Shown here in pieces: positions 12,821 through 13,565 of a DNA stretch of 64,000 bases. Source of the stretch: Octopus vulgaris (Eukaryota). The notes under the pieces were generated by a model. It was not told the DNA's origin, did not search any database, and saw only the letters and a list, made by a program, of their open reading frames with translations. Position numbers and translations under genes: made by a program. The stretch lies in NCBI GenBank assembly GCA_951406725.2, contig OX597826.1, positions 1,860,001 through 1,924,000 of the forward strand, given 5' to 3'. Within the stretch, counting starts at the first letter, position 1. The number at the start of each line of letters is the position of its first letter.

Positions 12821-13565
12821 TTGTCACGCCTCCTTCCTTCAAACGGGAAGGAAGAGCTATTTTCATCATCCTTGTGGCTATGGCGAAATAATGTATCTGG
12901 TGGACGCGTCTGAAAGGATTGGAGACAAACACTTTCCTCTCTGGTCAATCTCTCATCAACTTCTTCAAGTACCACTTGAAAAGGAAAGTGAGAGTAGAGA
13001 GGCAAGTTTTGTCTAGCGAATGTTTTAAAAAAAGATGGGTGAATGTAGCAAGAATGGCACGTATGAATGACGAAGCCACCTTGAGCATGATCCTATGAAC
13101 CCAGAAATTGAAAACAGAGAGTTGCTTATGCGCAAAAAAAAAAAAAAGAAACATAACATGTGACTCCATTGACCGAGGTTACCGTGGTCTTTTCCGTAGG
13201 CTTTTCTTTCCACGGGTAAACCTCACCTGTCCTCCCCTTTACACTTCATATTGACATTTCTGTGATAACGATCCCTATTGATCAATTTTTTTTTTTTTCC
13301 TCTCCCCATTTTTTTTTTAACCCCCCTTTTTTTTGTCCTCTTTCTCTCCTTTTACGATCCCTTTTGATCGAAACTCCCCTTCCTTTTTTTTCTCCCCCCC
13401 TTTTTTTAACCCCTCCCTTTTTTGTCCTTTTTCTTTCCTTTCACGATCCCTTTTGATCGAAAACCACCACTCATTTTTTTTTTTTTTTTTTTTACCCCCA
13501 AAAGAAAAGCTCTACCTTGTAATTTGTTCTATCTGTGTGCAGCCCTGTGTGGCTAATAAAGAAAC
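12820..13565 (+). mobile_element. 5'-truncated Tx1/L1-type LINE (ORF2 C-terminus plus 3' UTR)
   Basis: Frame IVTPPSFKREGRAIFIILVAMAK*CIWWTRLKG...FFKYHLKRKVRVERQVLSSECFKKRWVNVARM resembles the Tx1 ORF2 C-terminus (AK..IW..R ... F..RW). The T-rich 3' UTR ends CAGCCCTGTGTGGCTAATAAAGAAAC. Confidence 0.75.

What the first reader, a model, noticed from the sequence alone, without database searches (positions are those of the whole stretch)
13535..13565. One 3' stem-loop tail shared by a Tx1-type LINE, the ORF1-only element and SINE family B
Seen: the LINE end (13535-13565, +) is TGTGTGCAGCCCTGTGTGGCTAATAAAGAAAC. The ORF1-only end (26043-26081, -) is TGTCCCCTCTGTGTAGCCCTTTATGGGTAATAAAGAAAC. The SINE B tail 1 (18177-18217 +, also 8806-8845 - and 61966-62007 +) is TGTCCCCTCTGTGTTTAGCCCCTTATGGGCAGTAAAGAAAT. 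Each has a short GCC(C)/(G)GGC stem with a 5-6-nt loop just before (A)TAAAGAAA, and none has a poly(A) tail. Known: stringent LINEs (L2, CR1, RTE) mobilise SINEs through shared 3' stem-loops, whereas L1-group elements are usually 'relaxed' and recognise poly(A). Inference: a tripartite Tx1 LINE/half-LINE/SINE system with stringent tail recognition.
Basis: partly seen in the sequence, partly recalled or inferred. Interest (0 to 1): 0.8.

Follow-up and report, generated by a model that had tools for sequence, protein, structure and literature searches.

The report
One RNA tail, three octopus retroelements
In octopus DNA, an L1-group jumping gene (likely Tx1), a shorter repeat that codes only for an RNA-binding protein, and a short non-coding repeat (SINE) all end in the same roughly 45-base tail without poly(A), which likely serves as the handle by which the first element's enzyme, or a close relative's, copies all three.

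Summary
The window is octopus DNA. A 5'-truncated LINE (12820-13566) ends in the quoted tail; its ORF2 piece is 79% identical to a full EN-RT-zinc-finger ORF2 whose best PDB match is human L1 ORF2p. The ORF1-only element (26042-27686) is a real insertion: 13-bp target-site duplication, empty site in 3 of 4 runs, near-identical copies in 4 of 4 runs, predicted tandem RRM plus CCHC protein. The three TSD-bounded ends read (LINE TSD probable only) carry no poly(A), and the tail similarity exceeds background. Best reading: an octopod L1/Tx1 lineage with poly(A)-independent tail recognition mobilises a half-LINE and a SINE (0.65), perhaps through a sister family. New variant of a known kind: L1-tail SINE pairs are listed only for plants and algae in the table I read.

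The parts
12820..13566 (+). 5'-truncated L1-group (likely Tx1) LINE copy: last ~90 codons of ORF2, 3' UTR and tail
   Evidence: translation and tblastn to P0002/P0005 (79% over 68 aa)
12820..13098 (+). ORF2 C-terminal fragment, one in-frame stop at 12889-12891, end stop 13096-13098
13175..13224 (+). predicted imperfect hairpin in the LINE 3' UTR, followed by a U/C-rich spacer with three small GATC hairpins (13270, 13356, 13445)
   Evidence: fold (z -1.1, not significant)
13521..13565 (+). LINE tail: predicted stem AGCC 13541-13544 / GGCT 13551-13554, loop CTGTGT, then AATAAAGAAAC; no poly(A)
13567..13595 (+). probable TSD, 3' copy: (ATCT)n ending in ATTG, matching the (ATCT)n-ATTG just before the LINE (to 12823); length uncertain inside a microsatellite
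26042..27686 (-). ORF1-only (half-LINE) element, 1645 bp: 155-nt 5' UTR, ORF1, hairpin, U-rich spacer, tail
   Evidence: TSD, empty-site joints and family contigs, anatomy
26206..27531 (-). ORF1: predicted two RRM-like domains plus one CCHC knuckle; this copy has a premature stop at 27403-27405 and a frame break near 26600
26161..26196 (-). strong predicted hairpin just after the ORF1 stop, also present in diverged families
   Evidence: z -5.9; high depth and a variant with a changed but still pairing stem among loose ends
26043..26087 (-). half-LINE tail: predicted stem GCCC/GGGT, loop TTTAT, then AATAAAGAAAC; no poly(A)
26029..26041 (-). 13-bp TSD, 3' copy (5' copy at 27687-27699)
   Evidence: joints
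61778..62016 (+). full-length monomeric SINE B with tail 1, ending (AAGAAAT)2-AA, with a 19-bp TSD (61753-61771 and 62017-62035)
8805..9011 (-). 5'-shortened monomeric SINE B ending in tail 1; no TSD found
17989..18217 (+). SINE B monomer with tail 1, internal: followed directly by a second monomer (18220-18390) that ends in tail 2
33954..34176 (-). SINE B monomer with internal tail 1 that has lost the 5' arm of the stem; same dimer junction as 18217/18220
33572..33785 (-). SINE B monomer with internal tail 1 (4-nt loop), followed by another monomer

Best explanation
An octopod L1-group LINE lineage (likely Tx1), an ORF1-only half-LINE family and one tail class of a SINE share one homologous, poly(A)-less 3' tail, and the LINE's ORF2 protein, or that of a sister family, likely recognises this predicted stem-loop and copies all three. 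Shown: the shared ~45-nt tail, the L1-group ORF2, the TSD-bounded ends 5-6 nt (SINE up to 14 nt, by a short repeat) after the (A)TAAA motif with no A-run, and the multi-copy half-LINE. Inferred: LINE and half-LINE are Pol II transcripts, the SINE a Pol III transcript; ORF2p binds the tail, nicks the target with a stagger of about 13-19 nt or more, and starts reverse transcription at a fixed register inside the RNA at AAAGAAAY, so that any poly(A) or read-through is left behind; slippage there gives the (AAGAAAT)2 end of the SINE. The half-LINE would supply its own ORF1p and borrow ORF2p; the SINE would have captured the tail by template switching from a LINE or half-LINE, and also exists with a second tail.
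For: Tail similarity above background. ORF2 fragment 79% identical to P0005, which has Exo_endo_phos, RVT_1 and zf-RVT; best PDB match human L1 ORF2p E 1.5e-53 against R2 2.7e-19; P0005, P0008, P0012 and Argonauta P0013 form one branch, 100/99. TSDs of 13 bp, 19 bp and a probable one of 20 bp or more, none preceded by poly(A). Half-LINE covered in 30 of 30 bins in 4 of 4 runs with near-identical contigs, empty site joined in 3 of 4 runs, and loose ends beyond the tail heterogeneous (41 contigs in X2, 30 in X9; agreement 0.47, 0.42) with no A-run. ORF1 model pLDDT 93, tandem-RRM matches. LINE and half-LINE tails give the same bipartite fold, and 43 of 44 cells of the named structure pair. Shared tails mark LINE/SINE partners and the loop and stem are needed in L2 assays (PMC3747384; PMC4176376).
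Against: No two-sided covariation in 7 tails (0 of 7 pairs; one pair varies G-C/G-U); stems are marginal in energy (LINE z -0.9, SINE 18177 z -0.4). The LINE pairs in a register shifted by one base and has another loop, and in L2 the loop gives specificity, so this family may not be the driver. The LINE end rests on one copy. Tail 1 is internal in 3 of 5 SINE copies and terminal in 2 of 12 monomers read; 7 of 12 end in tail 2. AATAAA lies in the tail of LINE, half-LINE and 1 of 5 SINE copies, so part of the conservation may be a poly(A) signal. Outside the tail the two 3' UTRs are not alike (score 24, shuffled 95th percentile 27), and no call links this ORF1 to this ORF2 (0 of 20 ORF1 relatives scanned carry EN or RT).
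Confidence: 0.65

Rival explanations
1. The tail is homologous but recognition is not structure-specific: it is kept as a 3'-end processing signal (AATAAA plus U/G-rich context), and ORF2p primes on the A-rich AAAGAAA or by pairing with the target, in a half-relaxed way; the stem is incidental.
For: AATAAA or AGTAAA sits in the most conserved part; stems are weak and lack two-sided covariation; Tx1-mobilised SINEU have poly(A) and no tail homology to any known LINE (PMC4494074).
Against: Homology runs about 30 nt upstream of AATAAA; insertions end 5-6 nt after it with no A-run, which cleavage and polyadenylation would not give (established knowledge: cleavage 10-30 nt downstream); 4 of 5 SINE copies lack the exact AATAAA yet 4 of 5 keep a stem; the one stem deletion is in an internal copy.
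Confidence: 0.2
2. The tail comes from elsewhere (a LINE of another clade, or the SINE itself) and was picked up by this L1-group copy or family; SINE and half-LINE are driven by that other LINE.
For: SINE and half-LINE tails are closer to each other (87%) than to the LINE (74-83%); the LINE end is one copy; RRM+CCHC ORF1 proteins are not confined to Tx1 (own knowledge); octopus holds RTE, CR1, Dong-R4, I and other clades (PMC13282606 supplement).
Against: One probable TSD brackets ORF2 fragment, UTR and tail together, with no SINE body or second junction before the tail; LINE and half-LINE share the layout stop, hairpin, U-rich spacer, tail; TSDs of 13-19 bp fit L1-group integration better than CR1/L2 (own knowledge).
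Confidence: 0.12
3. Chance resemblance of short T/G-rich stretches next to a poly(A) signal.
For: The match is short; two degenerate SINE tails score within background against the LINE tail.
Against: Four other tails beat all 12,612 background tiles against the LINE tail, 6 of 6 against the half-LINE tail, and the match lies exactly at TSD-defined ends.
Confidence: 0.03

Closest known systems
Maize/sorghum LINE1-1_ZM with ZmSINE2/ZmSINE3, and Chlamydomonas L1-1_CR with SINEX-3_CR (PMC3472496 part 1 of 3; PMC3747384 passages and Table 1)
   Same: L1-clade LINE sharing a ~45-50-nt 3' end with a predicted hairpin with SINEs; read as stringent recognition.
   Different: Those are plants and algae, their stems show compensatory changes, and the algal pair ends in poly(A). 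Here it is an animal, no poly(A), covariation not shown, and a protein-coding half-LINE shares the tail.
Crocodilian SINEU with Tx1-Mar (PMC4494074 part 1 of 5, passages, section 16)
   Same: SINEs assigned to Tx1 machinery in an animal.
   Different: SINEU have snRNA heads and poly(A) tails, the link rests on shared targets, and no LINE matched the SINEU-1 3' half; here the link is a shared tail without poly(A).
ORF1-only non-autonomous LINEs: HAL1 (L1), HeT-A (Jockey), Ag-Sponge (CR1) (PMC5786205 and PMC5753468 passages)
   Same: Encodes only ORF1p and must borrow RT.
   Different: Those passages name none from Tx1; this one has a predicted RRM-RRM-CCHC ORF1, no poly(A), and shares its tail with a SINE.
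Stringent L2 pairs: UnaL2/UnaSINE, ZfL2-1/ZfL2-2 (PMC4176376 passages)
   Same: What it works like: short 3' stem-loop, then a short repeat instead of poly(A).
   Different: Different clade; requirement was shown by assay there and is untested here.
Microsatellite-targeting Tx1 families Kibi and Koshi (as described in PMC4494074)
   Same: The LINE copy sits in an (ATCT)n microsatellite.
   Different: One insertion only; other repeat unit; half-LINE and SINE copies sit in other sequences.

Membership tests
L1 group (L1/Tx1) LINE | ORF2 with APE endonuclease, RT and C-terminal zinc finger | tested here: met
   P0005 and P0008: PF03372, PF00078, PF13966; window fragment 79% identical to the P0005 C-terminus. 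The window copy itself lacks EN and RT (truncated).
L1 group (L1/Tx1) LINE | RT closer to L1 than to other clades | tested here: met
   PDB search: human L1 ORF2p E 1.5e-53 over residues 5-883, R2 2.7e-19; only L1 and R2 full-length ORF2 structures were among the 15 hits.
Tx1 clade | RT groups with named Tx1 elements in a phylogeny | not testable with these tools
   None of the 120 listed homologues carried a Tx1 or L1 name; the tree of 29 rows has no labelled reference.
Tx1 clade | Type I ORF1p (RRM + CCHC) | tested here: inconclusive
   Met for the half-LINE; the LINE's own ORF1 was not seen. PMC5203782 passages tie RRM/CCHC ORF1 in non-mammalian animals to Tx1.
Tx1 clade | Target-sequence preference (common, not universal) | tested here: inconclusive
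   One copy in (ATCT)n; Patella relatives (41% RT identity) carry neighbouring locus tags, as in a tandem array.
Stringent-type LINE/SINE pair | Shared 3' tail between LINE and SINE | tested here: met
Stringent-type LINE/SINE pair | No poly(A); fixed 3' end or short terminal repeat | tested here: met
   3 of 3 ends with a TSD or probable TSD; loose ends
Stringent-type LINE/SINE pair | Stem-loop supported by compensatory changes | tested here: inconclusive
   0 of 7 pairs with two-sided change, one G-C/G-U pair, in only 7 sequences of which 5 are one SINE family; too few to exclude it.
Stringent-type LINE/SINE pair | Tail needed for retrotransposition | not testable with these tools
   needs an assay
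Stringent-type LINE/SINE pair | Overlapping periods of activity | not testable with these tools
   No genome. SINE copies are 85-93% identical pairwise; the half-LINE copy differs from its nearest contigs by about 0.3-2.5%; LINE age unknown.
ORF1-only non-autonomous LINE (HAL1-like) | Complete insertion encoding ORF1p and no ORF2 | tested here: met
   TSD, empty site, 1645 bp, no RT
ORF1-only non-autonomous LINE (HAL1-like) | Multi-copy family | tested here: met
   606-1053 contigs per run laid, 30 of 30 bins, near-identical pieces at several times the lowest listed depths (depth is no copy number); no listed piece spans the whole element. Relatives named from O. sinensis, O. vulgaris, O. bimaculoides and Argonauta.
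ORF1-only non-autonomous LINE (HAL1-like) | ORF1 derived from the partner LINE | not testable with these tools
   No DNA of a full-length LINE was obtained.
tRNA-derived SINE | Short, multi-copy, non-coding, TSD | tested here: met
   12 body copies in the window, ~230-bp monomer, 19-bp TSD
tRNA-derived SINE | tRNA-derived head with A and B boxes | tested here: inconclusive
   Box-like motifs seen by eye; strict patterns did not match; ARAGORN and Rfam found nothing.
MetaSINE | Meta central domain | tested here: not met
   No likeness by eye to BivaMeta-SINE1/BivaMD-SINE1 in the supplement, part 1 of 4; four SINE B words absent from the whole file. The 'Meta-like' label in my notebook is withdrawn.

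The most novel reading that the evidence does not exclude
Octopods carry a stringent, poly(A)-independent Tx1 lineage whose CUU(G/A)U-type stem-loop handle is exploited by two classes of parasite at once, a diverse superfamily of ORF1-only half-LINEs and an abundant SINE; SINE tail 2, which has the same pentaloop on a stem with swapped base pairs, is the handle of a sister Tx1 family. This would be the animal case predicted by the 'ancestral L1 was stringent' model and a natural series of cognate RT/tail pairs.
Probability: 0.3. Interest if true: 0.72.

Novelty: new variant of a known kind. Interest (0 to 1): 0.52.

Why it matters
[quoted passage not shown] An animal L1/Tx1 lineage with a poly(A)-less tail, an intact ORF2 on record (P0005) and two natural trans-substrates makes that idea testable in the same cell assays used for L1 and L2. 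It would also name a driver for part of the octopus SINE expansion (SINEs 11.7% of the O. vulgaris genome, 1279 of 1317 families unclassified). Each ingredient alone (shared tails, half-LINEs, Tx1-driven SINEs) is known.

Tried and rejected
No genome is held. Protein scan of metagenome contigs: 250 pattern matches, 0 relatives. Tail-pattern scans: 0 in viral contigs, 2 in metagenome contigs, both unrelated chance matches with no likeness to the window or the LINE proteins. So no second LINE 3' end and no full-length LINE DNA were obtained. The read-laying run showed 40 of 633 variant rows, none inside the tail stem, so family-wide covariation was not obtained. No RNA holder listed. A covariance model of the 7 tails found only its 7 training sequences; next best E 0.13. 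The best background match to the LINE tail (59.9 kb) is a microsatellite. MetaSINE label rejected. 'TX1' in PMC4176376 is a mutant name, not the clade. ESM Atlas gave only unnamed EN/RT/zf-RVT clusters for ORF2 and CCHC or ZCCHC3-like clusters for ORF1. Not-in-print claim: ten searches showed no paper on an octopus Tx1 tail pair; the library lacks most subscription papers; Repbase, Dfam, SINEBase supplements and the 1994 octopus SINE paper (reference line only) could not be seen, so SINE B may be one of the families named there (OK/OR1/OR2, names recalled) and the pairing may be noted in a database entry.

Full report
Setting. The window is microsatellite-rich animal DNA; protein hits name Octopus sinensis, O. 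bimaculoides, O. vulgaris and Argonauta, so I read it as octopus. No genome is held.

Observation. The five quoted stretches are there, with a one-base slip for the LINE and variant letters in two SINE copies. A self-search added two SINE tail copies. Against 12,612 background tiles, the LINE's last 50 nt match the half-LINE tail (52) and three SINE tails (49, 40, 36) better than any background tile (33); two SINE tails (32, 25) do not; the half-LINE tail beats background with 6 of 6 others. Homology is confined to about 45-50 nt; the rest of the two 3' UTRs and the SINE body are not alike.

The LINE. 12820-13566 holds the last ~90 codons of ORF2 (one in-frame stop), a 470-nt 3' UTR and the tail. 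The fragment is 79% identical to the C-terminus of P0005, a 1148-aa protein with APE endonuclease, RT and zf-RVT, whose best solved relative is human L1 ORF2p (E 1.5e-53; R2 2.7e-19). P0005, P0008, P0012 and Argonauta P0013 (69-76% RT identity to P0005) form one branch, 100/99, in a tree of 29 rows chosen by hand from 122 stored ORF2s, so several sister families exist. No labelled Tx1 could be added, so 'Tx1' is inferred: the O. vulgaris annotation lists 80 L1-Tx1 and 60 L1 families, and only L1-Tx1 among recently active ones (PMC13282606, part 1 of 3 and whole supplement). The copy is flanked on both sides by (ATCT)n ending in ATTG, a probable TSD, which puts the 3' end at AATAAAGAAAC(A) with no A-run. 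This is one copy.

The ORF1-only element. A 13-bp TSD bounds 26042-27686. Contigs of four runs cover 30 of 30 bins; several pieces differ by only 1-5 letters in 185-315 and lie at several times the lowest listed depths; the empty site is joined in 3 of 4 runs; the premature stop of this copy is not shared by the contigs listed at that place. Depth is no copy number and no listed piece spans the element, but a multi-copy family is the plain reading. Much higher depth over the CCHC codons, the post-stop hairpin and the 3' UTR, with joints from hairpin to tail in 4 of 4 runs (short sides of 24-30 letters, so weak), points to further diverged half-LINE families; 395 protein relatives were found, of which 150 were listed, and 7 of 10 looked up carry octopod names. 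None of 20 scanned carries EN or RT. The model (pLDDT 93, 44 sequences) matches tandem RRM proteins (E 4.5e-5; La RRM Z 8.7, rmsd 2.2, 79 aligned) and Pfam sees one CCHC just under its cut-off: a type I ORF1p. That it descends from this LINE's ORF1 is not shown.

The SINE. Twelve copies of the body were read to their ends (three weak hits left out). Five carry tail 1, seven a different tail 2. It is not a MetaSINE; a tRNA head is likely but was not confirmed.

The structure. LINE and half-LINE tails fold alike (inner 4-bp stem, outer UCU/AGA helix); SINE copies keep the inner stem in 4 of 5. Energies are marginal (z -0.1 to -2.5). In 7 aligned tails 43 of 44 cells pair, but no pair changes on both sides, and the structure was derived from these sequences. 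The LINE pairs one base out of register and has a 6-nt loop. Post hoc, tail 2 shows the same CUUGU-type pentaloop on a 4-bp stem in 6 of 7 copies, with two pairs swapped relative to tail 1 and an outer pair that varies A-U, U-A, G-U; such stem-loops occur 19 times in the window (10 at these tails) against 6.4 in shuffles (max 14 of 50). Homology of tail 2 to tail 1 is not established.

Mechanism. Fixed ends just after the (A)TAAA motif without poly(A), TSDs of L1-group size and a tail shared by three unlike bodies fit ORF2p recognition of the tail and internal initiation (0.65). A processing-signal reading (0.2) and a foreign origin of the tail (0.12) remain. Because the loop confers specificity in L2 (PMC4176376 passages), the true driver of SINE and half-LINE may be a sister family.

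Comparison. It works like stringent L2 pairs. L1-clade precedents are maize/sorghum and Chlamydomonas (PMC3472496 part 1 of 3; PMC3747384 passages, section 1.4 and Table 1). Tx1-driven SINEU have poly(A) and no known tail donor (PMC4494074). Half-LINEs are known from L1, Jockey and CR1 (PMC5786205, PMC5753468 passages). Bivalve SINE partners are CR1, CR1-Zenon, L2 and Nimb, with no mention of Tx1 (PMC11481361 passages). Passages of PMC4758252, PMC4824008, PMC8967140, PMC5203782, PMC11203168 and PMC3531059 named no octopus partner. Ten searches found no report of this pairing, but Repbase, Dfam and subscription papers were out of reach.

Verdict. Real and well bounded; a new variant of a known kind; stringency and Tx1 placement untested. 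Interest 0.52.

Noticed in passing
window 17935-17986 +, 18345-18395 +, 37410-37460 +, 33780-33825 -, 33450-33490 -, 33078-33125 -, 32845-32892 -: SINE B tail 2 has a 4-bp stem with the same CUUGU-type loop as tail 1 but swapped pairs (6 of 7 copies); its outer pair varies A-U/U-A/G-U. Donor LINE unknown.
   Followed up: partly
window 32830-34180 -: Head-to-tail stack of six SINE B monomers; a TTATAGCGTTAA-like word recurs at several junctions, as if one site had been hit repeatedly.
   Followed up: no
window 33790-33952 -: Hybrid monomer: begins tail 1 (TTAATCCGTATGT) and then switches to tail 2, a trace of tail exchange.
   Followed up: no
window 26000-26041 and 27687-27740: The half-LINE's target site lies in a high-depth repeat with empty copies in 3 of 4 runs; possible preference for another repeat.
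   Followed up: partly
window 26161-26196 -: Strong hairpin right after the ORF1 stop, shared by diverged half-LINE families, with a variant whose stem letters change but still pair; function unexplained.
   Followed up: partly
window 19800-20600 -: Decayed RT-like fragment of another non-LTR element (looks R2/NeSL/Hero-like by eye); not searched.
   Followed up: no
window 1800-2400 - and 43400-44600 +: Decayed Tc1/mariner-like transposase stretches, judged by eye from translation or sequence.
   Followed up: no
window 19073-19550, 39996-40385, 62578-62992 and others: A second abundant SINE family with an internal microsatellite; its 3' part shares a GGGGTCGA...TCGAC hairpin with the SINE B body.
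   Followed up: no
proteins P0102, P0146-P0159: Patella caerulea relatives of the ORF2 carry neighbouring locus tags on one chromosome, as expected of a target-specific element in a tandem array.
   Followed up: no
protein P0004: An O. bimaculoides gene model joins the same ORF2 C-terminal piece to an ORF1-like relative of the half-LINE; probably a chimeric prediction.
   Followed up: no
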